Below are positions 3,301 to 47,300 of a stretch of DNA of 64,000 bases, one piece after another. The position numbers were made by a program, and so were the translations under genes. Each line of letters starts with the position of its first letter. The stretch's first letter is position 1. Location: positions 186,001 to 250,000 of the forward strand of contig CM075988.1 in assembly GCA_038087875.1 (NCBI GenBank), written 5' to 3'. Source of the stretch: Malacoraja senta (taxonomy: Eukaryota). The notes beneath the pieces are model-generated. The model made no database searches and had not been told where the DNA came from. It saw only the letters and a list, made by a program, of their open reading frames with translations.

Positions 3301-6300
3301 AGTGAGTGAGTGAGTGAGTGAGTGAGTGAGTGAGTGAGTGAGTGAGTGAGTGAGTGAGTGAGTGAGTGAGTGAGTGAGTGAGTGAGTGATGCCGGTGTAT
3401 GAGTGAGTGAATGTGGCCGGTGCGTGAGTGAGTGAGTGTGGCCGGTGAGTGTGGCCGGTGAGTGAATGAGTGCGGCCGGTGAGTTACTGAGTGAGTGAGT
3501 GTGGCTGGTGAGTGAGTGAGTGTGGCCGGTGAGTGAGTGAGTGAGTTAGTGAGTGTGGCCGGTGAGTGAGTGAGTGTGGCCCGTGAGTGAGTGTGGCCCC
3601 TGAGTGAGTGGGTGAGTGAGTGAGTGAGTGAGTGAGTGAGTGAGTGAGTGAGTGAGTGAGTGAGTGAGTGAGTGAGTGAGTGAGTGAGTGAGTGCGTGAG
3701 TGAGTGAGTGAGTGTGGCCCGTGAATGAGTGTGATTGAGTGTGGCCCGTGAGTGAGTGTGTGTGAGTGTGGCCCGTGAGTGAGTGTGTGTGGCCCGTGAG
3801 TGAGTGAGTGTGGCCGGTGAGTGAGTGTGGCCCGTGAGTGAGTGAGTGCGTCTGGTGAGTGACTGAGTGTGGTCGGTGAGCGAGTGAGTGAGTGTGACCG
3901 GTGAGTGAGTGTGGCCCATGAGTGAGTGTGACCCGTGAGTGAGTGAGTGAGTGAGTGAGTGAGTGAGTGAGTGAGTGAGTGAGTGAGTGAGTGAGTGAGT
4001 GAGTGAGTGAGTGAGTGAGTGAGTGAGTGAGTGAGTGATTGAGTGAGTGAGTGAAGCCGGTGTGTGAGTGAGTGAATGTGGCCGGTGCGTGAGTGAGTGA
4101 GTGTGGCCGGTGAGTGTGGCCGGTGAGTGAGTGAGTGTGGCCGGTGAGTTAGTGAGTGTGAGTGTGGCTGGTGAGTGAGTGAGTGTGGCCGGTGAGTGAG
4201 TGAGTGAGTTAGTGAGTGTGGCCGGTGAGTGAGTGTGGCCCGTGAGTGAGTGTGGCCTGTGAGTGAGTGAGTGAGTGAGTGAGTGAGTGAGTGAGTGAGT
4301 GAGTGAGTGAGTGAGTGAGTGAGTGAGTGAGTGAGTGAGTGAGTGAGTGAGTGCGTGAGTGTGGCCCGTGAATGAGTGAGTGAGTGAGTGTGGCCTGTGA
4401 GTGAGTGTGAGTGAGTGTGGGCCGTGAGTGAGTGTGTGTGGCCCGTGAGTGAGTGAGTGTGGCCGGTGAGTGAGTGTGGCCCGTGAGTGAGTGAGTGCGG
4501 CCGGTGAGTGAGTGAGTGTGGTCGGTGAGCGAGTGAATGAGTGTGACCTGTGAGTGAGTGTGGCCCATGAGTGAGTGTGACCCGTGAGTGAGTGTGACCC
4601 GTGAGTGAGTGAGTGAGTGAGTGAGTGAGTGAGTGAGTGAGTGAGTGAGTGAGTGAGTGAGTGAGTGAGTGAGTGATGCCGGTGTGTGAGTGAGTGAATG
4701 TGGCCGGTGCGTGAGTGAGTGAGTGTGGCTGGTGAGTGTGGCCGGTGAGTGAGTGAGTGCGGCCGGTGAGTTACTGAGTGAGTGAGTGTGGCTGGTGAGT
4801 GAGTGAGTGTGGCCGGTGAGTGAGTGAGTGAGTTAGTGAGTGTGGCCGGTGAGTGAGTGAGTGTGGCCCGTGAGTGAGTGTGGCCCGTGAGTGAGTGAGT
4901 GAGTGAGTGAGTGAGTGAGTGAGTGAGTGAGTGAGTGAGTGAGTGAGTGAGTGAGTGAATGAGTGAGTGAGTGAGTGAGTCAGTGTGGCCCATGAATGAG
5001 AGTGATTGAGTGTGGCCCGTGAGTGAGTGTGAGTGAGTGTGGCCCATGAGTGAGTGTGTGTGGCCCGTGAGTGAGTGAGTGTGGCCGGTGAGTGAGTGTA
5101 GCCCGTGAGTGAGTGAGTGAGTGAGTGTGGTCGGTGAGCGTGTGAGTGAGTGTGACCGGTGAGTGAGTGTGGCCCATGAGTGAGTGTGACCCGTGAGTGA
5201 GTGTGAGTGAGTGAGTGAGTGAGTGAGTGAGTGAGTGAGTGAGTGAGTGAGTGAGTGAGTGAGTGAGTGAGTGAGTGAGTGAGTGAGTGAGTAAGTGAGT
5301 GAGTGATGCCAGTGTGTGAGTGAGTGAATGTGGCCGGTGCGTGAGTGAGTGAGTGTGGCCGGTGAGTGTGGCCGGTGAGTGAGTGAGTGTGGCCAGTGAG
5401 TTACTGAGTGAGTGAGTGTGGCTGGTGAGTGAGTGAGTGTGGCCGGTGAGTGAGTGAGTGAGTTAGTGAGTGTGGCCGGTGAGTGAGTGAGTGTGGCCCG
5501 TGAGTGAGTGTGAGTGAGTGTGGCCCATGAGTGAGTGTGTGTGGCCCGTGAGTGAGTGAGTGTGGTCGGTGAGTGAGTGTAGCCCGTGAGTGAGTGAGTG
5601 AGTGAGTGAGTGTGGTCGGTGAGCGAGTGAGTGAGTGTGACCGGTGAGTGAGTGTGGCCCATGAGTGAGTGTGACCCGTGAGTGAGTTTGAGTGAGTGAG
5701 TGAGTGAGTGAGTGAGTGAGTGAGTGAGTGAGTGAGTGAGTGAGTGAGTGAGTGAGTGAGTGATGCCGGTGTGTGAGTGAGTGAATGTGGCCGGTGCGTG
5801 AGTGAGTGAGTGTGGCCGGTGAGTGAGTGAGTGCGGCCGGTGAGCTACTGAGTGAGTGAGTATGGCTGGTGAGTGAGTGAGTGAGTTAGTGAGTGTGGCC
5901 GGTGAGTGAGAGAGTGTGGCCCGTGAGTGAGTGTGGCCCGTGAGTGAGTGAGTGAGTGAGTGAGTGAGTGAGTGAGTGAGTGAGTGAGTGAGTGAGTGAG
6001 TGAGTGAGTGCGTGAGTGAGTGAGTGAGTGTGGCCCGTGAATGAGTGTGATTGAGTGTGGCCCGTGAGTGAGTGAGTGAGTGAGTGAGTGAGTGAGTGAG
6101 TGAGTGAGTGAGTGAGTGAGTGAATGAGTGAGTGAGTGAGTGAGTCAGTGTGGCCCGTGAATGAGTGAGTGATTGAGTGTGGCCCGTGAGTGAGTGTGAG
6201 TGAGTGTGGCCCATGAGTGAGTGTGTGTGGCCCATGAGTGAGTGAGCTTGGCCGGTGAGTGAGTGTAGCCCGTGAGTGAGTGAGTGAGTGAGTGTGGTCG

Positions 6301-9300
6301 GTGAGCGAGTGAGTGAGTGTGACCGGTGAGTGAGTGTGGCCCATGAGTGAGTGTGACCCGTGAGTGAGTGTGAGTGAGTGAGTGAGTGAGTGAGTGAGTG
6401 AGTGAGTGAGTGAGTGAGTGAGTGAGTGAGTGAGTGAGTGAGTGAGTGAGTGAGTGAGTGAGTGAGTGAGTGAGTGAGTGAGTGATGCCGGTGTGTGAGT
6501 GAGTGAGTTAGTGAGTGTGGCCGGTGAGTGAGTGAGTGTGGCCCGTGAGTGAGTGTGGCCCGTGAGTGAGTGAGTGAGTGAGTGAGTGAGTGAGTGAGTG
6601 AGTGAGTGAGTGAGTGAGTGAGTGAGTGAGTGAGTGAGTGAGTGAGTGAGTGCGTGAGTGAGTGAGTGAGTGTGGCCCGTGAATGAGTGTGATTGAGTGT
6701 GGCCCGTGAGTGAGTGTGTGTGAGTGTGGCCCGTGAGTGAGTCTGTGTGGCCCGTGAGTGAGTGAGTGTGGCCGGTGAGTGAGTGTGGCCCGTGAGTGAG
6801 TGAATGCGTCTGGTGAGTGAGTGAGTGTGGTCGGTGAGCGAGTGAGTGAGTGTGACCGGTGAGTGAGTGTGGCCCATGAGTGAGTGTGACCCGTGAGTGA
6901 GTGAGTGAGTGAGTGAGTGAGTGAGTGAGTGAGTGAGTGAGTAAGTGAGTGAGTGATGCCAGTGTGTGAGTGAGTGAATGTGGCCGGTGCGTGAGTGAGT
7001 GAGTGTGGCCGGTGAGTGTGGCCGGTGAGTGAGTGAGTGTGGCCAGTGAGTTACTGAGTGAGTGAGTGTGGCTGGTGAGTGAGTGAGTGTGGCCGGTGAG
7101 TGAGTGAGTGAGTTAGTGAGTGTGGCCGGTGAGTGAGTGAGTGTGGCCCGTGAGTGAGTGTGAGTGAGTGTGGCCCATGAGTGAGTGTGTGTGGCCCGTG
7201 AGTGAGTGAGTGTGGTCGGTGAGTGAGTGTAGCCCGTGAGTGAGTGAGTGAGTGAGTGTGGTCGGTGAGCGAGTGAGTGAGTGTGACCGGTGAGTGAGTG
7301 TGGCCCATGAGTGAGTGTGACCCGTGAGTGAGTGTGAGTGAGTGAGTGAGTGAGTGAGTGAGTGAGTGAGTGAGTGAGTGAGTGAGTGAGTGAGTGAGTG
7401 AGTGAGTGAGTGAGTGATGCCGGTGTGTGAGTGAGTGAATGTGGCCGGTGCGTGAGTGAGTGAGTGTGGCCGGTGAGTGAGTGAGTGCGGCCGGTGAGCT
7501 ACTGAGTGAGTGAGTATGGCTGGTGAGTGAGTGAGTGAGTTAGTGAGTGTGGCCGGTGAGTGAGAGAGTGTGGCCCGTGAGTGAGTGTGGCCCGTGAGTG
7601 AGTGAGTGAGTGAGTGAGTGAGTGAGTGAGTGAGTGAGTGAGTGAGTGAGTGAGTGAGTGAGTGCGTGAGTGAGTGAGTGAGTGTGGCCCGTGAATGAGT
7701 GTGATTGAGTGTGGCCCGTGAGTGAGTGAGTGAGTGAGTGAGTGAGTGAGTGAGTGAGTGAGTGAGTGAGTGAGTGAGTGAGTGAATGAGTGAGTGAGTG
7801 AGTGAGTCAGTGTGGCCCGTGAATGAGTGAGTGATTGAGTGTGGCCCGTGAGTGAGTGTGAGTGAGTGTGGCCCATGAGTGAGTGTGTGTGGCCCATGAG
7901 TGAGTGAGCTTGGCCGGTGAGTGAGTGTAGCCCGTGAGTGAGTGAGTGAGTGAGTGTGGTCGGTGAGCGAGTGAGTGAGTGTGACCGGTGAGTGAGTGTG
8001 GCCCATGAGTGAGTGTGACCCGTGAGTGAGTGTGAGTGAGTGAGTGAGTGAGTGAGTGAGTGAGTGAGTGAGTGAGTGAGTGAGTGAGTGAGTGAGTGAG
8101 TGAGTGAGTGAGTGAGTGAGTGATGCCGGTGTGTGAGTGAGTGAGTTAGTGAGTGTGGCCGGTGAGTGAGTGAGTGTGGCCCGTGAGTGAGTGTGGCCCG
8201 TGAGTGAGTGAGTGAGTGAGTGAGTGAGTGAGTGAGTGAGTGAGTGAGTGAGTGAGTGAGTGAGTGCGTGAGTGAGTGAGTGAGTGTGGCCCGTGAATGA
8301 GTGTGATTGAGTGTGGCCCGTGAGTGAGTGTGTGTGAGTGTGGCCCGTGAGTGAGTCTGTGTGGCCCGTGAGTGAGTGAGTGTGGCCGGTGAGTGAGTGT
8401 GGCCCGTGAGTGAGTGAATGCGTCTGGTGAGTGAGTGAGTGTGGTCGGTGAGCGAGTGAGTGAGTGTGACCGGTGAGTGAGTGTGGCCCATGAGTGAGTG
8501 TGACCCGTGAGTGAGTGAGTGAGTGAGTGAGTGAGTGAGTGAGTGAGTGAGTGAGTGAGTGAGTGAGTGAGTGAGTGAGTGAGTGAGTGAGTGATTGAGT
8601 GAGTGAGTGAATGTGGCCGGTGCGTGAGTGAGTGAGTGTGGCCGGTGAGTGTGGCCGGTGAGTGAGTGAGTGTGGCCGGTGAGTTAGTGAGTGAGTGAGT
8701 GTGGCTGGTGAGTGAGTGAGTGTGGCCGGTGAGTGAGTGAGTGAGTTAGTGAGTGTGGCCGGTGAGTGAGTGAGTGTGGCCTGTGAATGAGTGTGGCCTG
8801 TGAGTGAGTGAGTGAGTGAGTGAGTGAGTGAGTGAGTGAGTGAGTGAGTGAGTGAGTGAGTGAGTGAGTGAGTGAGTGAGTGAGTGAGTGTGGCCCATGA
8901 ATGAGTGAGTGATTGAGTGTGGCCTGTGAGTGAGTGTGAGTGAGTGTGGCCCGTGAGTGAGTGTGTGTGGCCCGTGAGTGAGTGAGTGTGGCTGTTGAGT
9001 GAGTGTGGCCTGTGAGTGAGTGAGTGAGTTAGTGAGTGTGGCCGGTGAGTGAGTGAGTGTGGCCCGTGAGTGAGTGTGGCCCGTGAGTGAGTGAGTGAGT
9101 GAGTGAGTGAGTGAGTGAGTGAGTGAGTGAGTGAGTGAGTGAGTGAGTGAGTGAGTGAGTGAGTGAGTGAGGCCCGTGAATGAGTGAGTGAGTGAGTGAG
9201 TGTGGCCTGTGAGTGAGTGAGTGAGTGAGTGCGTGAGTGAGTGAGTGAGTGTGGCCCATGAATGAGTGTGATTGAGTGTGGCCCGTGAGTGAGTGAGTGA

Positions 9301-35091: not shown

Positions 35092-37034
35092 CCCCCACCT
35101 AAAGATACTGAATAAGTTTCGGAAGAAGAGAGAAAAAACACCACCAAATCCCAGAAACTATTCAGGAGCTAAACTCCACTGGCGCGACAAGGCGTCAGCC
35201 AAGACATTATCCTTGCCACGGATGTCTGACCTGGGGCACACAACCAAATCATCAAGGTATGCCTCACAGAAGGGCAAACCAGACAATACAATGTTCACCA
35301 ACCGTTGGAAGGTTTCCGGCGCATTGCGCATCCCAAATGCCATTACTGTACACTGCAGAAAGTTATCAGGCGTAACGAACGCAGAGATCTCCCTCTCCCT
35401 CGCCCGCATAGTCAAGGGAACTTGCCAATACCCTTTTAGCAAGTCCAACTTGGACACAAAAGATGCACTTCCCACACGATCCACGCAATTCGTGGGAGAG
35501 GATAGCAATCCGACTTAGTTAGTCCATTCACTTTCCGAAAGTCCATGCAAAACCTGTCCTCCCCATTAGCCTTCATAGCCAGCAGACACGGAGAACTCCA
35601 CGGACTACAACTAGGTTCAGCAATGCCATGCCGCAGCATATAGTCAACCTGACTCCCTAGACGATGACGCTTGTCAGGGTTGACCCGATACGGATGCTGT
35701 TTAATTGGCGCAGCACCGGCCACATCAATGTCATGCTGCAGCACAGACGTCTGAGAAGGCACATCCGAGAACAGTGACCCATTTGACTCCACTAAATCAA
35801 GCAGATCACCCCGCTGACTTTCAGACAAATGAGACAACCGCAAGGGAAGCGACCCCAAAGCCTCAGAGTTACACAGCCTTCCCTGGGTCACTGCCACAGA
35901 CAACCGTGCCTCACCCACATCACCACCCGTGCCAGGGGCAGCACTGCTGCAGCCAAAACAGGCTTAATATCAAGCAACTTCATTACCTGACCAAAAACCT
36001 TCGACATGAAGTTGGAAACTTGGTCACTCTGCACAACCTTGGGCAACCCGAACAACGAAAAAAACTTAGTGAGACTTCACAATGATAGGGGCAGTAATTC
36101 TACGCAAAGGGACCACCTCCGGAAAGCGGGTAGACGCCCACATAATAACCATATAACCATATAACCATAACAGCACGGAAACAGGCCATCTCGGCCCTTC
36201 AAGTCCGTGCCGAACATTTAAAAAAAAAAATTTGTTTTAATTAAAAATAAATACTTCCCCCTAGTCCCATCTACCTGCACTCAGACCATAACCCTCCACT
36301 CCTTTCCCGTCCATATACCCATCCAATCTATTTTTAAAGGACAACATCGAACCTGCCTCCACCACTTCCACTGGAAGCTCATTCCACACAGCTACCACTC
36401 TCTGAGTAAAGAAGTTCCCCCTAATGTTCCCCCTAAACTTCTGTCCCTTAATTCTCAAGTCATGTCCCCTTGTTTGAATTTTCCCTACTCTCAATGGGAA
36501 AAGCTTATCCACGTCCACTCTGTCTAACCCGCTCATAATTTTAAAGACCTCTATCAAGTCCCCTCTTAACCTTCTGCGCTCCAAAGAATAAAGACCTAAC
36601 TTGTTCAACCTTTCTCTGTAACTTAGTTGCTGATTGTCAATAAAATTGTCAATAAAAACTTGTTTCCCCTCTTTGTCCGAGGTAGAGGACCCACACAATC
36701 AACTAGAATGCGTGCAAACGGCTCGCCGACTACAAGGATTGGATATAAAGGCGCAGGAACAATCGATTTGTTCGGCTTTCCTGCCACCTGGCAAATTTGA
36801 CAACACCTGCACTTCTGATTTACATCCTTTTTCAACCCTGGCCAAAAAAAATTCCGTAAGATACGGTCATACGTCTTATTGACCCCTAAATGTCCACCCA
36901 GAGGACCATCATGAGCCAAACATCTCGTCCCTATACCGACGAGGTATCACAATCTGATCATGCCCAGATATATCTAAGGGAGACCACTTTCGCATCAGTA
37001 AGCCCTCCCTTAGAAAATACCCTTTTGCTGTGGA
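35092..37034 (-). mobile_element. Gmr1-like LTR retrotransposon internal remnant (integrase - RT - RNase H end), deleted and interrupted by CR1
   Basis: Minus-strand order: integrase HHCC and core (AHDGPLGGHLGVNKT..CQIC..VDCVGPLP; STRFPEVVPLRRITA), then RT (IKQHPYRVNP, SPWSSP, DFRKVN, LDLLKGYWQVP, FGMRNAPETFQR, YLDD), then RNase H C-terminus (IRGKDNVLADALSR), then PPT and LTR. Frameshifts and large deletions are present. Confidence 0.85.
36144..36632 (-). mobile_element. 5'-truncated CR1 LINE inserted in the Gmr1 integrase
   Basis: CR1 ORF2 C-terminus (LSYRERLNKLGLYSLERRRLRGDLIEVFK..TRGH..FFTQRVVAVWNELP) with an (ATGGTTAT)n 3' tail. The integrase reads KFLLTI | MWASTRFPE on either side. Confidence 0.9.
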
Positions 37035-37071: not shown

Positions 37072-37722
37072 AATAGTAATAGTAATTTTATTGTCAATTC
37101 ACATAATGTAACGAGTAGTTACACAGAGGATTGAAATTGCGTTTCTCCATACTCCAATGTGCAAGTAATATTTATAAAACAGACAGACAGTGTACCAATA
37201 AAAGTAGACAATGGACATATACATTATATAAAATAATATATTCATTAATAAAAGGTGCAATATAGCATACTGTGCAAGTAGCATACTGCAGACATGAAGT
37301 TAATTTGACAGTCAGTTGGTCTTTGTGTAATGTTCATGGAATTTTCTTGAGTGTGTTGAGTAGTCTGATGGCCTGAGGGAAAAAGCTGTTTTTGAATCTT
37401 GTGGTTTTGCTCCGCATGCTGCGGTAGCACTTGCCGGATGGTAGGAGGGTGAACAGTTTATGTGCTGGGTGGGTGGTGTCTTTGATGATGTTAGTTGCTC
37501 TCTTGCGACAGCGAGATGGATATGTCTTGAATTGCTGGTTGGGGTGGTCTAGTGATCTTCTCCGCTGTCCTCACCACTCTCTGTAGGGCCTTCTGGTCAG
37601 CAGCAGAGCAACTGCCATACCAGACTGAGAGACTGCTGGTAAGAATGCTCTCAATGGCACCCCTGTAAAAAGTTGTGAGGGCAGAAGGGGGGAGGTCGGC
37701 TCTCCTCATCCGTCGAAGGAAG
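37072..37722 (-). mobile_element. Rex1/Babar-type non-LTR retrotransposon, 3' part
   Basis: RRMRRADLPPSALTTFYRGAIESILTSSLSVWYGSCSAADQKALQRVVRTAEKIT, followed by a 3' UTR with AATAAA and an (ATTACT)n tail at ~37072-37092. Confidence 0.85.
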
Positions 37723-37733
37723 TGTAGATGAGA

Positions 37734-38506
37734 TCCCCGGTCAAGTTGTCCGTATGCAGACCGCTCCCGGTTACTCCAAGCTCGCTACTGTCGTCGGCTC
37801 TGCGGGGTCGCCCAGGTCCTATTTCGTCGACCATGCTGGGGCCATTTACCGACGGTCCCGCCAGCACCTTCGGCTCGTCAACGAGCCGCGTCCTCCTGCC
37901 GCGGATCCCTTTGCTCCCCCACTGCCTGTTTCGCGTCAGGGCGTTGCTCTGCCCGTCCGTCCTGACATGCAACGTTCTGCTCCTCCTCCGCCCCTTCCGT
38001 TCCAACCCACTCCGACTAGTCCTCGCTCGCCTGCCCGCGCTCTTCCCGGTCCCGACCTCGCATCCCCTCCGGGTTCGGTGCCGCGGTCTCTTCCGTCTCC
38101 TCCCGTTTCTCCCTTTCAGGTTCGTCTTTCCCCGCCGGTGCCTCTTCCTCCTGCAGGAAGGGTGGATGGCGAGACGCGAACCCGGGCGGGACGTCTTGTC
38201 AAACCGCCTGACCGCTATGGCGATTTTGTTTAACTATCCTAGCGCATGAGCCGTGGTCGCCATGTCACCATTGTATTTGCCTGTCGTTTCGAAGAGGAAA
38301 GATGTAGATGAGATATGCATGTGCCTTTAACATAGTGACCTCATACCTACTAACCACTCCCCATATCACAAGTATATCTACAACCTCCCCACCCACAGAT
38401 CGCTCTCTAGTTCCTGTGACAGACCACGTACAGCTAGTGCTATGTGTAATGCTCCAGTATGAATAAAGATAGTAAAGTAACGACGCCTAGTTATGAATCC
38501 TTTACA
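37734..38506 (+). repeat. 773-bp direct repeat of 41568-42340 (integrase C-terminus + 3' UTR + PPT + LTR)
   Basis: Offset 3834 bp. The only difference I found by eye is T37834 versus C41668 (CpG transition). Confidence 0.95.
38303..38506 (+). mobile_element. Gypsy LTR (204 bp), upstream copy
   Basis: TGTAGATGAG...CCTTTACA, with AATAAA at 38462-38467. Preceded by the PPT GAAGAGGAAAGA (38291-38302) and followed by the PBS. Confidence 0.95.
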
Positions 38507-41500
38507 TGGTGTCAGAAGTGGGATTCGAACCCACGCCTCCAGTGCTACAAGGGGAGGTACCCAGCAAAGGTGCCCTAATTGCAACTTCACAACTCATCAA
38601 TTCAATGTGTGCCCTGCTTTGGGAAAGACTTGCAATGTCTGCAATAAATTGAACCATTTTGCTGCGGCTTGTCGTTCCCGTGGGAAGCCTGTCGCTGCTC
38701 GAAAGGGAAATGTAAACAACCTTCTACAAGCTGACAACGAGCTCAGCTCCCAGTGCTATTCCGATGAACATTCTGTTTCTACATCTGACTCCTCTCAGGG
38801 GGAGACCAACTTGTTTACCGTGTTGGACGCACCTGCTATGATAACGGATCCTTCTGTGCAAGTCACTGTGAACAACTCGACCTTCACTGCTAAAATCGAC
38901 ACGGGGGCGGTGACCAACGTAATGTCAACATCCCTTTTCAACCAGATAAGAACTAATGAGCAGATATTTTCTCAGAGCTCAACCTTGCATGCCTACGGTG
39001 GGGAGATTCTTACTCCTGTGGGCAAGGCCACGCTACACTGTAAGATACTAGAGACCACTTGGCCCCTCACCTTCTATCTCCTCAATCGAAAATGCATTCC
39101 CCTGCTGGGGATCCAGGCATGCCAGGAAATGGGACTGGTGTACTTCCACCGGGACATCCACCAGGTGCAGACTCTTATGGACCCGCTGGCCGATTATCCC
39201 GACCGCTTTGATGATAAGCTAGGCAAACTACCCTGCAGCTACAAGATTGTAGTGGACCATAAGATCGTTCCTGTGGTCCATGCTCCTCACCGTGTCTCCT
39301 TCGCCATGAGGGACAGAGTGGAGGCGACCCTACACAGTATGGTACAAATGGGCGTCCTAAAGGCGGTAGTCAAGCCCACCAGCTGGGTCTCTTCCATGGT
39401 TGTTGCTGCTAAAAAGGACATGAGCGAGATACGCATCTGCATCAACCCCAAGGACCTCAACCTGGCCATTCGACGCCCTCACTACCCTATGAGAACGGTG
39501 GAAGACGTCGCTGCACAGGTTGGTCCAGCAACGGTTTTTTCTGTCCTCGATGCCAAAAGCTCCTTCTGGCAGATACCACTGGACGAGCGGTCGTCCATTT
39601 TGACAACTTTCGCCACCCCCTACGGAAGGTTTCGGTTCCTCCGAATGCCATTCGGGATCAACTCTGCCAGCGAGGTATTTCAGCGGACCATGGAGCAGTT
39701 GTTTTTAGATCTGCCTTGCGCCATAATTGTTGACGACATCCTCGTTTACGGTAAGGACGTTGCCGAACACGATGTCAACCTCCGCCTGGTCCTGGACCGG
39801 GCCCGGCAAATCAACTTGAAACTGAACCCCAAGAAGTGCCGATTCCGCGTCTCGGAGGTCACCTATGTTGGACATGTATTCACCGCTGAGGGGCTAAAGC
39901 CAGACCCGCAGAAAACGGCTGCCATCTCAGGGATGCCCCCTCCTACCAATGTGGCAGGCCTGCAACGCTTCCTCGGCTTGGTAAACTACCTGGGGAAGTT
40001 CATCCCCGACCTCAGCGAGCTCAGCGCTCCCCTGAGGGATCTGATCAAAAAGGACACGTCCTGGCTTTGGTTACCCAACCATCAGAAGGCATTTGACATT
40101 CTTAAGTCTAAGCTGATCAGCACCCCCACGCTCAAGTTCTTTGACCTGCAGCATCCCATTGTCCTCACCTGCGACGCCTCTCAGTTCGGACTCGGTGCCG
40201 CCTGCCTCCAGGTCCATGACGGCCTGCAGCTGCCTGTCTCCTTCGCGTCCCGCACCATGACCGCCACCGAACAGCACTACGCGCAGATTGAGAAGGAGCT
40301 ACTGGCCGTGGTGTTTGCCTGCTCCAAATTCCGGGACTACATCGTGGGCAACACTTTCACCGTTGAAACTGACCATCAGCCACTTGTCACCATCCTCAAC
40401 AAATCGATCCATGTGGCCTCATCACGCCTGCAGCGCATGATGCTGCAGCTCCAGCGCTTCACTTCACGGTGGTTTATCGTAAGGGCAAGGACATGTTCGT
40501 GGCCGACACGTTGTCTCGCGCCCCGCTGACGTCCACCGCTCGCCACCAATATGAAATGTCTGAGTTATTGGTGCTACGATTGAACATCGTCCCCTCGCAG
40601 CAGATGAAGTCCCTGGTTGAACACACTACCAATGACCCTGCCCTGCAACAGCTGTCTGCCGTCATCCGGCAGGGCTGGCCTGACCGTCGTTCGGCACTGC
40701 CGGCTGGTGCCGTGCCCTACTTCCTGATTCGGGACGAGCTCGTACTGCACGACGGCGTGGTGGTGAAGGGTCACAAAGTGGTCGTGCCCGCGGCGCTGCA
40801 CGACCAATATTTTCAAGTCGCACACCGCGGTCACCCTGGGGCCGAAGCCACCGTGTCTCTCGCCAGGAGCCAGTTCTATTGGCCGGATATGGCCAAATAC
40901 ATCCGGGAGAGGGTCTCCTCGTGTTCCACCTGCAACAGCCGCGCCCCCCATCAGCAGCGTCAGCCGCTTCTACAGCAGCCCGCGCCCGAACTGCCCTGGA
41001 TGGCGCTTGCCACTGACATTTTCGAGTGGCGGGGCAAACATTTCCTGGTGCTCGTTGACTCCTACTCCAGCTGGTTTGTGGTCGACCGGCTGCATTCCGT
41101 GACCTCTTCGGCCGTCATCGACAGGTTGTACCCTCATTTTGGCACTTTTGGCCCCCCGGCAAGCCTGCAGTCGGACAATGGCAGCCAGTTCACGAGCTCC
41201 GAGTTTAAAGCGTTCGCTTCCAGATGGAACTTCCGCCATTTCACCAGCAGCCCAGAGTACCCACAAAGCAACGGTTTGGCCGAGCGCGCAGTCCGCAGTG
41301 CTAAGCACCTGTTGGAACAGTGTGGTGGCATTAACTCCGACTTCCATCTGGCCCTCCTCAACCTTCGGAACATTTCCCGCGACTCTGCCATGGGTTCACC
41401 TGCTCAGCGGCTCATGTCTCGCGCTACCAGACTCCCGCTCCCTGTGGCCCAGCGCTCCCTCATACCCTCCATCCTCCCACCTGCGGCGGTTCAGAAACGC

Positions 41501-42067
41501 ATTGCCTTCAGGCACGACGTCCAAAAGCGTTCCCATGACAGGTCCTGCCACCCGCTGCCGCGCCTCTTCCCCGGTCAAGTTGTCCGTATGCAGACCGCTC
41601 CCGGTTACTCCAAGCTCGCTACTGTCGTCGGCTCTGCGGGGTCGCCCAGGTCCTATTTCGTCGACCACGCTGGGGCCATTTACCGACGGTCCCGCCAGCA
41701 CCTTCGGCTCGTCAACGAGCCGCGTCCTCCTGCCGCGGATCCCTTTGCTCCCCCACTGCCTGTTTCGCGTCAGGGCGTTGCTCTGCCCGTCCGTCCTGAC
41801 ATGCAACGTTCTGCTCCTCCTCCGCCCCTTCCGTTCCAACCCACTCCGACTAGTCCTCGCTCGCCTGCCCGCGCTCTTCCCGGTCCCGACCTCGCATCCC
41901 CTCCGGGTTCGGTGCCGCGGTCTCTTCCGTCTCCTCCCGTTTCTCCCTTTCAGGTTCGTCTTTCCCCGCCGGTGCCTCTTCCTCCTGCAGGAAGGGTGGA
42001 TGGCGAGACGCGAACCCGGGCGGGACGTCTTGTCAAACCGCCTGACCGCTATGGCGATTTTGTTTAA
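38493..42067 (+). pseudogene. Gypsy gag(C-terminal zinc knuckle)-pol polyprotein, broken by one frameshift near 40461
   Basis: Zinc knuckle region CPNC..H..CPALGKTCNVCNKLNHFAAAC, protease IDTGA, RT (VLDAKSSFWQIP, RMPFGI, IVDDILV), RNase H (CDASQFGLGA, YAQIEKELLA, TDHQPL), integrase (H..GHPG..CSTC, DIF, SDNGSQF, NGLAERAV). ORFs 38493-40529 and 40469-42067 join if one base is restored (QRF[N]FTVVYRKGK). Confidence 0.9.
38507..38542 (+). promoter_or_regulatory. tRNA-Leu primer-binding site extended to 35-36 nt
   Basis: TGGTGTCAGAAGTGGGATTCGAACCCACGCCTCCAG is the reverse complement of CTGGAGGCGTGGGTTCGAATCCCACTTCTGACA-CCA, the 3' part of vertebrate tRNA-Leu (CAG/CAA), including the T-loop and the CCA end. 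Confidence 0.9.
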
Positions 42068-42124
42068 CTATCCTAGCGCATGAGCCGTGGTCGCCATGTC
42101 ACCATTGTATTTGCCTGTCGTTTC

Positions 42125-42136
42125 GAAGAGGAAAGA
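42125..42136 (+). promoter_or_regulatory. Polypurine tract
   Basis: GAAGAGGAAAGA immediately before the 3' LTR. Confidence 0.9.
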
Positions 42137-42340
42137 TGTAGATGAGATATGCATGTGCCTTTAACATAGTGACCTCATACCTACTAACCACTCCCCATAT
42201 CACAAGTATATCTACAACCTCCCCACCCACAGATCGCTCTCTAGTTCCTGTGACAGACCACGTACAGCTAGTGCTATGTGTAATGCTCCAGTATGAATAA
42301 AGATAGTAAAGTAACGACGCCTAGTTATGAATCCTTTACA
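42137..42340 (+). mobile_element. Gypsy 3' LTR (204 bp)
   Basis: Identical by eye to 38303-38506. Ends CA followed by the TSD GGAAG. Confidence 0.95.
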
Positions 42341-42600
42341 GGAAGTGCTTTCTTGACTAGGGAGATGGTGTTGGTGGACCATGTCTGATCATCTGTGATG
42401 TGTACTCCCAGGAACTTGGTGCTTTTCACAGACTCCACTGCACTGCCATTTATGGTGAGTGGGGTGTGTGCTGCCTGTTTCTTCGTGAAGTCCACAGTTA
42501 TTTCTTTCGTTTTGTTGACATTGAGTTGAAGGTTATTGATGTCACACCAGTTGATGAGTTGTTGTACCTCCTCTCTGTAGGCTTCTTTAGATATTATCCA
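42341..42600 (-). mobile_element. Rex1/Babar-type element, upstream part (5'-truncated)
   Basis: EAYREEVQQLINWCDINNLQLNVNKTKEITVDF..INGSAVESVKSTKFLGVHITDDQTWSTNTISLVKKA, which continues into the 37072-37722 piece across the Gypsy insertion. Confidence 0.85.
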
Positions 42601-44394: not shown

Positions 44395-47300
44395 CTGTTT
44401 TGGTGCTATCCCAGCACTCTGGAGTGAACACATACATGGATCGATGTGACACCCCAAGCCGTAGGGGCAGTCTATTCAGAATCTGCAAGTCATAAATTGA
44501 TGTTATCATGCAAAGGCTGGTTTCCCGAGCCACAGGCTGAACCGGCAAAGTTTAAGTTTAGAATAACCATATATGGTTGCTGTGGCGGCTCCCAAGGGTC
44601 GGGCCATCCTAACTGTCAAACCCCTCGGCACGGGAATGGTTCAGTCCAGAGGCGGCCCTTAACCAGAGGGTTTAAATGCAAGGGTTTGGGTGCCATCTTA
44701 TTCTCGTGGACTTCCCTACAACCTGGAAGGACATAAATAAAGGTGCCTCCCGAAATACCTGGCTCCTTGCTTTCATTTCGGGACCTACGCACCACATTGT
44801 ATTATTATTCCCGACAAAAGCGGGAATCAAAGCTGCATAGGCCAGTCAGACAGTAGGAAAAACCTAAAGCAGGATCTTGATGACTTTATTTGAAGACCCG
44901 ACTAATGAGGCAAAATGGAGGAAGACATAAAAGACCATTCCTCCTCCTTGTAGCGAGAATGTATCTCTCGCCACTTTTATGCCACATATTTTTGCAACCG
45001 GTGAATAAGCATGAAAACAACATATCGATATTCGGTGTTCCATCGAACCAGAATTTCATAAATACTGTATGATCCAACACCCATTTTGTGTTGTCATTGA
45101 TCTGTACTTGATGATAAACCAATGGCGAATGTATTAGTTAAACTATTACAGGATACTTTTACTTGATTGCACCCATGTGACTAACATATGCCACCACCAT
45201 AGTGTATTAACTTGAAGTTGAGCATGCAGATTATGCATATTCGCTCAATCATTCTTTAACCCATAGAATGCACCGAGTGTCTATAGATAGTTGATACCAA
45301 AAACTGAAGATTTGGTAACTCATGCAAATCTCTTCCACCTCCAAACTAGAGATGACATTCGCAATTTTCCACGTTAGAGACCTTAGCATCAGTTTGCAAT
45401 ATAACTGAAAATTTTACTGACCAAACTACTGGAGCAATGCTGAATACAGTTCATCCATCATTGTGACTTTGGTAGCTTCAGCTGGTAATAGCATAGGTGT
45501 GTTACCAATGACCTACATGGCACTTGAGAGGTTGCCACTTTGCACAATGTCAGTTCTCCCACCTGCACAGCTGAATCACAGCTACTATATTGCCAATTAC
45601 TCTTGATGAATAGAAGGCTGCTTTATAACAAGGCTGTTACAGGTTTCTATTAACTCCAATCTCTTGCCCCAGGGCGGAGTCATAGGCTAATTAATAGTTA
45701 AAGGTAAATCCCAATGACCAACAAGTCTATGTGGTAACAACTTAAATTTAACTGGATAGAGGAGCCCAATTTCTCAAATATAGTTTGAGGCTGAAACAGT
45801 TGATTTTAGCAAAAATGCAGCGTTAAAATATCATCCAGTCAAGATAACAAGTGTTTTTGAACTCTGAGTAGTCCACTTTGCAATGCTTTACTGTTATCAT
45901 TACTGTTATCATACTGTTATCATTGCCTCATCATAGCAATTACCTCCTCCTGATAATTTCAAATATCTCAGATGATCACTGTAAATGGGAACACCCTATG
46001 AAATCAGTTGTTAATCAGTAACGAAGTTTCCTATTCGGAAAAGTTTATACTGCACATGCGCGTTAAACAACATTCTCCATCTTTCATAATGAACAGGCCA
46101 CGCCTGCTATCATTTCGTGCCTGCCTCGAATGACAACTCTGGCCCGATTTCCGTGCCTGTCTTCAAAGACAATCCTGGCCATAATACTGAGCCTACCTCA
46201 TAATTCTGAACCTGCCTCTAAAGACAACTCTGGCCATAATTCTGAGCCTGCCTCGAAAGACAACTCTGGCCATAATTCTGAGCCTGCATCGAAAGACAAT
46301 TCTGGCCACAATTCTGAGCCTGCCTCGAAAGACAACTCTGCCCATATTTCCGAGCCTGTCTCGAAGGCAATCCGGGCCAAAATACTGGGCCTGCCTCAAA
46401 ACCCAATTCTGGCCCCAATTCCAAACCTGCTTGGAATGCTAGCATTGTCCAGTTTTACATGGTTAGATGCCGCTAAGTAGATGACAATGTCTTAACCATT
46501 TGTGTAATGTACAACCAAGTGTAAATATTACCAACTTGTAAGTGGTCCACTTACCCCATGTTTCGGAAGTGCCAGACCTATCTATCTCCCTGGTTACCTT
46601 AGTTGAAGAGTAGAACTGGTAGGGTGCGTGGAACCTCTGCCCAGCTTTCATGCTGCCACCAGCTTCAGTGAACCGCTTACTGCCGATGAACATGTGTGGT
46701 GCATTGTCGCCGAAACGATGAAGCTTTGCTCGTCGTTGGTACGTTGATTGGTCCGACAGCTTTTGCTTTGTCCTCCAGGTTTTGCCTGTTGAACAGGTCT
46801 TACCTGAATAGAAGATTCGGCGGCTGGCTCTAATGTCCCCCTGATAGCGCTGTTCACTGCCTGCACGCATGTGCTCCAGTATGTTCAACGGACATACTTT
46901 AGAATTTGAAGTCAGCTACATACTGACCACTCGCATCCCCTCCTCAAAGAGTGCGAATCGTAGGCAGCGCTGAAACAGGTGCTGCCGCAGGCCCCTGAAG
47001 ATACCTGCGCTGATATGGCCCTTCCAACGGACCTATACCAGGATGGAACATTTTTTCCCTGATTCTGTTGGGATGGCAAACCTTGCTGCCAGGAATGGTA
47101 CCTCTGACATGTGCCCTTCATCCCTTGGGGTATGCTCCATGGCTATACCCTCAGACTCGGCGTCAGAATTACACTGACCCGGCATGCTCTCCTCCTCCAC
47201 GAGGGAGACATTAAGCAGCCCTGTCCCAGGTGCTGCTGGCGCGGGCTCTCCCATAGGCCGGCGCTGACACAACTCCTGCTGTTGGAGCGTATCTAGGTGG

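What the first reader, a model, noticed from the sequence alone, without database searches (positions are those of the whole stretch)
37718..38506. Provirus with a 12-bp LTR stub and a duplicated pol 3' end, yet a perfect TSD
Seen: the left end is TSD GGAAG + TGTAGATGAGAT (first 12 nt of the LTR), then a jump via one shared T to internal position 41568, copying 569 bp of integrase C-terminus/UTR/PPT and a full LTR. The resulting 773-bp direct repeat shows one visible mismatch. Inference: one plus-strand event could explain this and the tRNA read-through together. Priming at the PPT, a backward template switch after 12 nt, and synthesis through PPT, LTR and tRNA would keep TG..CA ends for integrase. 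If so, about 12 bp of U3 terminus was enough for concerted integration. The alternative is a tandem LTR-int-LTR-int-LTR dimer later shortened by deletion.
Basis: partly seen in the sequence, partly recalled or inferred. Interest (0 to 1): 0.7.

Follow-up and report, generated by a model that had tools for sequence, protein, structure and literature searches.

The report
Gypsy insertion fossilising a reverse-transcription slip
A broken jumping-gene copy, likely in a cartilaginous fish, starts with only 12 bases of its end repeat followed by a duplicate of its own tail, likely left when the copying enzyme slipped backwards at a pause known from HIV: an unusual record of a copying error, but so far a single site.

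Summary
The structure is real as described: 5-bp repeat, 12-nt LTR stub, 1-nt junction, 773-bp repeat with one mismatch, identical 204-bp LTRs. The element is a K02A2.6-like Ty3/gypsy retrotransposon without env. Its PBS runs on through the tRNA T-arm, and about 216 Gag residues are missing.

Best reading (0.55): a plus-strand jump during reverse transcription. HIV-1 RT pauses at +12 and removes the PPT primer there, which matches the stub length; a random deletion would leave 12 nt or less 0.3% of the time.

New caveat: the target is a REX1-type LINE whose reading frame runs on through the stub, and 14 bp of it are missing next to the right TSD. The TSD is therefore not clean proof that 12 bp of U3 sufficed for concerted integration; att sites that short are known anyway.

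Rivals: repair of the integration intermediate (0.2), post-insertion rearrangement (0.17), misassembly (0.05). Reads, the empty site and other copies remain untested. A stub junction could not be inherited through normal reverse transcription, so several loci would mean a recurrent jump, not a subfamily.

The parts
37337..37722 (-). Target: 3' part of a REX1/Babar-type LINE fragment (family label from recall; domain hit from call). One frameshift near 37521.
   Evidence: Pfam PF09004 E 2.4e-8; tblastn to P0127 97% over residues 248-378
37718..37722 (+). Left copy of the 5-bp target repeat GGAAG
37723..37734 (+). 12-nt U3 stub (LTR nt 1-12). Its first 5 nt also fit the Leu-His codons of the target LINE's frame.
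37734..38302 (+). Duplicate of 41568-42136: integrase C-terminal coding region (from residue 369 of 534 of the second frame), 3' UTR and PPT
38303..38506 (+). Full LTR (204 bp), preceded by a PPT and followed by the PBS
38507..38538 (+). PBS extended past 18 nt through the complement of the whole tRNA T-arm (28 nt) and into the variable region. tRNA-Leu identity is from recall.
   Evidence: Rfam tRNA model 43-63 on the minus strand, perfect 5-bp stem, 16.3 bits, E 1.2, below gathering; relatives share the first 11-13 nt
38547..40460 (+). Gag zinc-knuckle end, protease, RT and RNase H; no stop codon. Leader and about 216 N-terminal Gag residues are missing. Frameshift near 40460.
40463..42067 (+). 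End of RNase H region and integrase (H2C2, rve), then a proline-rich tail and stop
41563..41569 (-). Acceptor site of the jump; carries a 7-nt inverted match to the PPT
   Evidence: 4 such sites in 38550-42110; 1.9% of positions lie within 5 nt of one
42125..42136 (+). Polypurine tract abutting the 3' LTR
   Evidence: same arrangement in relatives
42137..42340 (+). 3' LTR (204 bp), identical to 38303-38506
42341..42345 (+). Right copy of GGAAG. 14 bp of the target LINE are missing directly beyond it.
42346..42582 (-). Target: 5' part of the same LINE fragment, collinear with the left flank
   Evidence: tblastn to P0127 94% over residues 166-244

Best explanation
This is a defective Ty3/gypsy insertion whose left end is a 12-nt LTR stub joined to a copy of its own 3' end, likely made when reverse transcriptase restarted a 12-nt plus-strand intermediate 569 nt too far upstream. 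Inferred steps: (1) RT primes at the PPT, stops near +12 and RNase H frees the 12-mer with an exact U3 5' end. (2) The 12-mer is displaced and restarts at 41568/41569 on the single-stranded minus DNA with one paired base; a 7-bp pairing between the acceptor and the PPT complement may bring the sites together. (3) Synthesis runs through integrase tail, PPT and LTR. (4) A plus strand that had copied the tRNA past position 58 transferred into gag, deleting the leader and most of gag; this happened in the same cycle or an earlier one. (5) The DNA kept TG..CA ends and was inserted with a 5-bp stagger. The 14-bp loss at the right junction likely arose during repair of that insertion, possibly helped by the target's likeness to the U3 end. 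Shown: the structure, the gag loss, the T-arm complement and the 14-bp loss. Inferred: all timing and enzymology.
For: Stub length equals the +12 pause and PPT-removal intermediate of HIV-1 RT (PMC3185654, passages). Ty3 RT has ~13 bp between its active sites, and Ty1/Ty3 re-prime at the PPT and displace earlier plus strands (PMC5371799). A deletion from a dimer with a random left breakpoint leaves 12 nt or less in 12 of 3834 positions, 0.3%. The junction uses 1 nt although 36 internal sites offer 3 nt and 12 offer 4 nt, and stub and acceptor share 1 of 12 nt; this fits a non-homologous jump better than microhomology-driven repair. The acceptor has an inverted PPT 7-mer, about 2% by chance and noticed post hoc. 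The element is young: 1 mismatch in 773 bp (95% interval 0.003-0.7%), CpG o/e 0.78-1.12 inside against 0.16-0.55 in flanks, leaving little time for two later rearrangements. Faulty plus-strand work in this lineage is shown independently: 0 of 42 PBS-like sites in relatives reach a full T-stem, while this one does.
Against: The +12 pause is documented for HIV-1; the Ty3 review passages read had no hit for 'pause'. The model does not itself explain the target's likeness to U3 (chance 0.2-2%) or the 14-bp loss. In Ty1/Ty3 the tRNA-copying plus strand is a dead end, so one strand doing both needs an extra assumption. The 12-mer duplex is not very unstable (Tm about 41 C under assumed conditions). 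A 1-nt junction also fits end-joining of a deletion. The test for older decay in pol was inconclusive.
Confidence: 0.55

Rival explanations
1. Error-prone repair of the integration intermediate. A normal-ended cDNA was inserted, concertedly or by its U5 end only, at a target whose next bases resembled the U3 end. Host polymerases then extended 12 nt into the LTR, jumped to 41568, copied through the 3' LTR and re-annealed on the 5' LTR, while the other junction lost 14 bp.
For: 19 of 19 LINE relatives at 80% identity or more have three residues and then Leu across the site, and 17 of 19 read Leu-His (by eye). The window's frame gives Leu-His only by way of the stub, and residues 245-247 of P0127 are absent. 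Chance of the likeness is 0.0018-0.024. The ~630-bp LINE copy shows only one other frameshift, so an unrelated indel at the TSD edge is about a 1% event. One-ended HIV/ASLV integration followed by host copying of viral or host DNA is described (PMC5041404, Discussion).
Against: The junction has 1 nt of homology although better sites abound. In the cited work the aberrant ends usually carry long host duplications or deletions, not a 5-bp repeat. A stub of exactly 12 nt is not predicted. The DNA of the intact target was not seen; the likeness is deduced from protein relatives.
Confidence: 0.2
2. Post-insertion rearrangement: an LTR-int-LTR-int-LTR tandem (unequal LTR recombination or RT template switch) later lost about 3.26 kb, or a break at LTR nt 12 was repaired by copying the element's own 3' end.
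For: It gives the same sequence and keeps the TSD. Tandems with a shared LTR and a TSD are known in plants (PMC1950507; PMC11899658; PMC4079214). One-base junctions are common in end-joining (general knowledge).
Against: The breakpoint must fall in the first 12 of 3834 nt, 0.3%. It needs one or two rearrangements in a young element. It explains neither the target likeness nor the 14-bp loss.
Confidence: 0.17
3. Assembly artefact: the true locus has a single 5' LTR.
For: The two 773-bp copies are nearly identical and the site lies about 3 kb from a 34-kb simple-repeat array. No read-level test was obtained.
Against: The copies differ by a CpG-type transition. The junction is a clean one-base join with no gap nearby, and both flanks are collinear halves of one LINE.
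Confidence: 0.05

Closest known systems
K02A2.6-like Ty3/gypsy LTR retrotransposons of fishes and invertebrates
   Same: PR-RT-RH-IN order, 51-54% identity to the best full-length relatives, PBS abutting U5, PPT abutting U3, short TG..CA LTRs
   Different: Lacks about 216 Gag residues, has a frameshift, an over-long PBS and the stub with duplicate; no DNA relative closer than 64-73% local identity among 78 loci
HIV-1 +12 plus-strand initiation intermediate (Gotte 1999, as reviewed in PMC3185654)
   Same: A 12-nt DNA with an exact U3 5' end, freed from the PPT
   Different: In HIV it is extended in place; here it would have restarted upstream and been integrated. Not shown for a gypsy RT in what I read.
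Three-LTR 'complex' or tandem LTR retrotransposons (PMC1950507, PMC11899658, PMC4079214)
   Same: Internal LTR flanked by PPT and PBS, outer TSD
   Different: Those have a full outer LTR and a complete first internal region; here 12 nt and 569 nt
Aberrant one-ended integrations of ASLV and HIV-1 (PMC5041404)
   Same: Normal end on one side, viral sequence appended on the other, change in the host flank
   Different: Those ends are often truncated with long host duplications; here both TG..CA ends and a 5-bp repeat are present
[quoted passage not shown]
   Same: tRNA copied past m1A58; a deletion starting at the PBS
   Different: The reviews name products ending at 58, 55 or 54 as usable for transfer; this one runs past position 49 and was fixed in a germline
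Helenus TRIMs (PMC10886601)
   Same: tRNA-derived sequence in an LTR element
   Different: Helenus holds it inside the LTRs of a short non-coding element; here it lies after the LTR as an extension of the PBS

Membership tests
Ty3/gypsy LTR retrotransposon | PR-RT-RNase H-IN order | tested here: met
   Pfam, (protease hit weak, E 5e-4; DTG motif aligned)
Ty3/gypsy LTR retrotransposon | TG..CA LTRs, PBS after the LTR, PPT before the LTR, 4-6 bp TSD | tested here: met
   1 of 10 relatives with both flanks shows an exact 5-bp TSD, one more 4 of 5, the rest none
Ty3/gypsy LTR retrotransposon | Complete gag and pol (autonomy) | tested here: not met
   Median 216 N-terminal residues missing against 99 relatives; frameshift near 40460
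Retrovirus or errantivirus provirus | env gene | tested here: not met
   The integrase frame ends at 42067 and the LTR starts at 42137; no env hit in the 5 stretches scanned
Three-LTR tandem element | Three full LTRs and two complete internal regions | tested here: not met
   First LTR is 12 nt, first internal part 569 nt
Three-LTR tandem element | An allele with the full tandem at the same site | not testable with these tools
   No genome held; no read-level result obtained
One-ended aberrant integration | One end not made by integrase, with altered host flank | tested here: inconclusive
   14 bp lost at the right flank and target likeness at the left, but both ends are TG..CA with a 5-bp repeat
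Propagating non-autonomous subfamily with the stub junction | Same junction at several loci with different TSDs | tested here: inconclusive
   One copy in the window; 0 in viral contigs, a collection not expected to hold it; the rest of the genome was unavailable. By mechanism the junction is not heritable.
Helenus / TRIMp3 | tRNA-like sequence inside the LTRs of an element under 1 kb | tested here: not met

The most novel reading that the evidence does not exclude
The locus is a germline fossil of the +12 plus-strand initiation intermediate, so far described for HIV-1 in vitro, in an animal gypsy element. One errant strand jumped back, displaced its own PPT primer, and so forced the normally dead-end tRNA-extended strand into the second transfer. 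Its marginal 12-bp U3 end was then joined with help from a target that mimicked it. If so, 11-14-nt U3 stubs should recur in long-read genomes and would map RT pausing in vivo across LTR families.
Probability: 0.2. Interest if true: 0.62.

Novelty: new variant of a known kind. Interest (0 to 1): 0.4.

Why it matters
It is one defective insertion with no evident effect on the host. Its value is as a lead: if short U3 stubs recur with a length peak near 12 nt, assembled genomes would report where retrotransposon RT pauses to remove the PPT primer, a step studied mostly in vitro. It also shows that an apparently perfect TSD can hide target likeness and a small flank deletion, which matters when TSDs are taken as proof of concerted integration. 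LTR finders would likely call this element from the inner LTR and miss both the TSD and the true left end (inference).

Tried and rejected
No whole genome was held, so other copies of the family in this species were not seen. The run search listed 10 runs, two holding 0.68 and 0.61 of the words and no RNA holder; none was laid, so the shares are not used as evidence, and reads, the empty site and the family's normal gag junction stay open. The viral-contig scan with the RT protein gave 0 loci and the junction pattern 0 matches; neither is informative for a eukaryotic locus. ARAGORN found no tRNA gene in the window. The test for excess change at conserved residues was inconclusive: 3 of 119 and 9 of 175 columns, with 23-25% of 100 relatives as high or higher. 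No stable fold at the acceptor (z 0.63). A central PPT as the origin of the duplicate was rejected: the four plus-strand purine runs of 9 nt or more lie at 38701-40905, none near 41568. The tally block returned empty through an indexing error, so the counts come by eye from its printed rows (40 of 100 printed). The PBS finder found a site in 42 of 68 loci with a gag start; a few of the 42 are start codons and not PBS. Helenus was considered and rejected. Earlier findings of the scan: nothing in four look-ups. The Pulsinelli and Temin paper was not in the library, and on att length found 0 papers.

Full report
Observation. GGAAG lies at 37718-37722 and 42341-42345. The 12 nt at 37723-37734 equal the start of the LTR and occur in the window only there and at the two LTR starts. 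The repeat 37734-38506 / 41568-42340 is 773 bp with one mismatch (37834 T against 41668 C, a CpG-type change) and one shared T at the junction. The LTRs (38303-38506, 42137-42340) are identical over 204 bp. The nearest N run is 37 kb away.

The element. Pfam gives protease (weak), RT, RNase H and integrase in gypsy order. The best full-length relatives are K02A2.6-like gypsy polyproteins of about 1,350 aa at 51-54% identity. Against 99 relatives the window frame lacks a median of 216 N-terminal residues and starts just before the Gag zinc knuckle. There is a frameshift near 40460 and no room for env. The duplicate begins at residue 369 of 534 of the integrase frame. The PBS abuts U5, as in relatives, but continues through the complement of a whole tRNA T-arm. 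The Rfam match is weak alone (16.3 bits, E 1.2), but it lies in exact register behind the PBS with a perfect 5-bp stem. In 68 related loci with a gag start, 42 had a PBS-like site and none reached 4 of 5 T-stem pairs; by eye one (L014) reaches the T-loop, and most lose the shared sequence after 11-13 nt. These relatives are distant (64-73% local DNA identity), so a family-specific long PBS is not excluded. That the primer is tRNA-Leu and that the match runs to about nt 35 is from recall.

Both flanks are collinear halves of one REX1-type LINE on the minus strand (domain PF09004; the name REX1 is from recall). The closest named relative is from a skate, 97% and 94% identical on the two sides, so the host is likely a cartilaginous fish. 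Residue 244 of that protein ends at 42346 and residue 248 starts at 37727, inside the stub. Of the 19 relatives at 80% identity or more, all have three residues and then Leu across the site, and 17 read Leu-His (by eye). Two things follow. First, 14 bp of the target are missing directly beyond the right TSD copy, in a ~630-bp LINE fragment that shows only one other frameshift. Second, the intact target likely matched the start of U3 at five or more of the first eight bases after GGAAG; the chance of this is 0.0018, or 0.024 if the TG is taken as given, and it was noticed post hoc. The DNA of the intact target was not seen.

Age. One mismatch in 773 bp (95% interval 0.003-0.7%) and CpG o/e of 0.78 (unique internal part) and 1.12 (duplicate), against 0.16-0.55 in the flanks, make the insertion young. 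A test for older decay in pol could not separate insertion from duplication.

Mechanism. HIV-1 RT extends the PPT by 12 nt, pauses, turns and cuts the primer off, leaving a 12-mer with the exact U3 end (PMC3185654, passages). In Ty3 the two active sites are about 13 bp apart, and Ty1 and Ty3 re-prime at the PPT and displace earlier plus strands (PMC5371799, passages and section 2.2). A displaced 12-mer that restarts upstream and runs through PPT and LTR gives exactly this DNA. A deletion from a dimer would leave so short a stub in 12 of 3834 positions. The join uses one base although 36 internal sites offer three, so it was not guided by homology. The acceptor carries a 7-nt inverted match to the PPT; 1.9% of positions lie that near one, and such a pairing could form only on single-stranded minus DNA (inference). 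I give this model 0.55.

One event or two. Copying past m1A58 is a known minor outcome (PMC8599865 and PMC13191261, passages); deletions that start at the PBS with extra tRNA sequence are known from retroviral vectors (Pulsinelli and Temin 1991, recalled; not found). In Ty1 and Ty3 the tRNA-copying strand is normally a dead end. That can be read against a single event. It can also be read for one, since a strand that runs over its own PPT would end re-priming and leave only the tRNA-extended strand to transfer (inference). An over-long PBS with a gag deletion can also be inherited. I leave this at even odds. The stub itself cannot be inherited, because each cycle rebuilds the U3 end from the PPT; several loci with the same junction would mean a recurrent jump.

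Integration. A 12-bp att is within the known range: the MLV att sites are listed as 13 bp (PMC12789967, passages) and overexpressed Ty1 integrase inserts DNA that has only TG..CA ends with 5-bp duplications (PMC2939329, passages). Against sufficiency, positions 17-20 mattered for concerted HIV-1 integration in one in vitro study (PMC3185514, passages). With the target likeness and the 14-bp loss, this locus does not prove concerted integration. Host repair of a one-ended or gapped intermediate can append viral sequence and alter the flank (PMC5041404, passages and Discussion). That is the first rival (0.2): it explains the flank but not the length of 12, and such ends usually show long duplications. 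Tandem elements with a shared LTR and a TSD are known (PMC1950507, first half of the text; PMC11899658 and PMC4079214, passages), which keeps post-insertion rearrangement at 0.17. Misassembly is 0.05; no read-level result was obtained.

Novelty. Ten library searches and the passages read showed no description of a short U3 stub with a duplicated pol 3' end, but most older subscription papers on aberrant retroviral DNA are outside the library, and no supplements were opened. PMC3187697, PMC7197481 (passages) and PMC10886601 (first part and passages) added background only. Every ingredient is known; the combination and the match to +12 are the new part. Verdict: a new variant of a known kind, one locus, interest 0.4.

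Noticed in passing
window 324-34600: About 34 kb of a strand-biased simple-repeat array (GAGT-type units with spaced GGCC words, GC skew about 0.7), possibly a subtelomeric or centromeric satellite; a 200-N gap lies at 124-323.
   Followed up: no
window 46094-46456: 36-bp minisatellite of about seven copies inside open frames.
   Followed up: no
window 35158-36946 (minus strand): Fragments of another, decayed gypsy-type element (RT-like and integrase-like translations) interrupted by a CR1-like piece; labels from recall translations.
   Followed up: no
L014, primer site about 116 nt before gag: A relative with gag present whose PBS appears to extend through the tRNA T-loop (about 25 nt), like the primer over-extension sequence of lentiviruses.
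   Followed up: no
L015 119-3963 / 4598-8442 and L047 52-4264 / 5002-9214: Two related loci hold 3.8-kb and 4.2-kb direct repeats at 100% identity: tandem elements or assembly doubling.
   Followed up: partly
L048, primer site: The 18 nt after the PBS end in a copy of the LTR's own last 8 nt, a short local duplication.
   Followed up: no
P0127: A skate protein named as a mitochondrial carrier carries this LINE's RT and PF09004 region at 94-97% identity, likely a gene model that took in a LINE.
   Followed up: no
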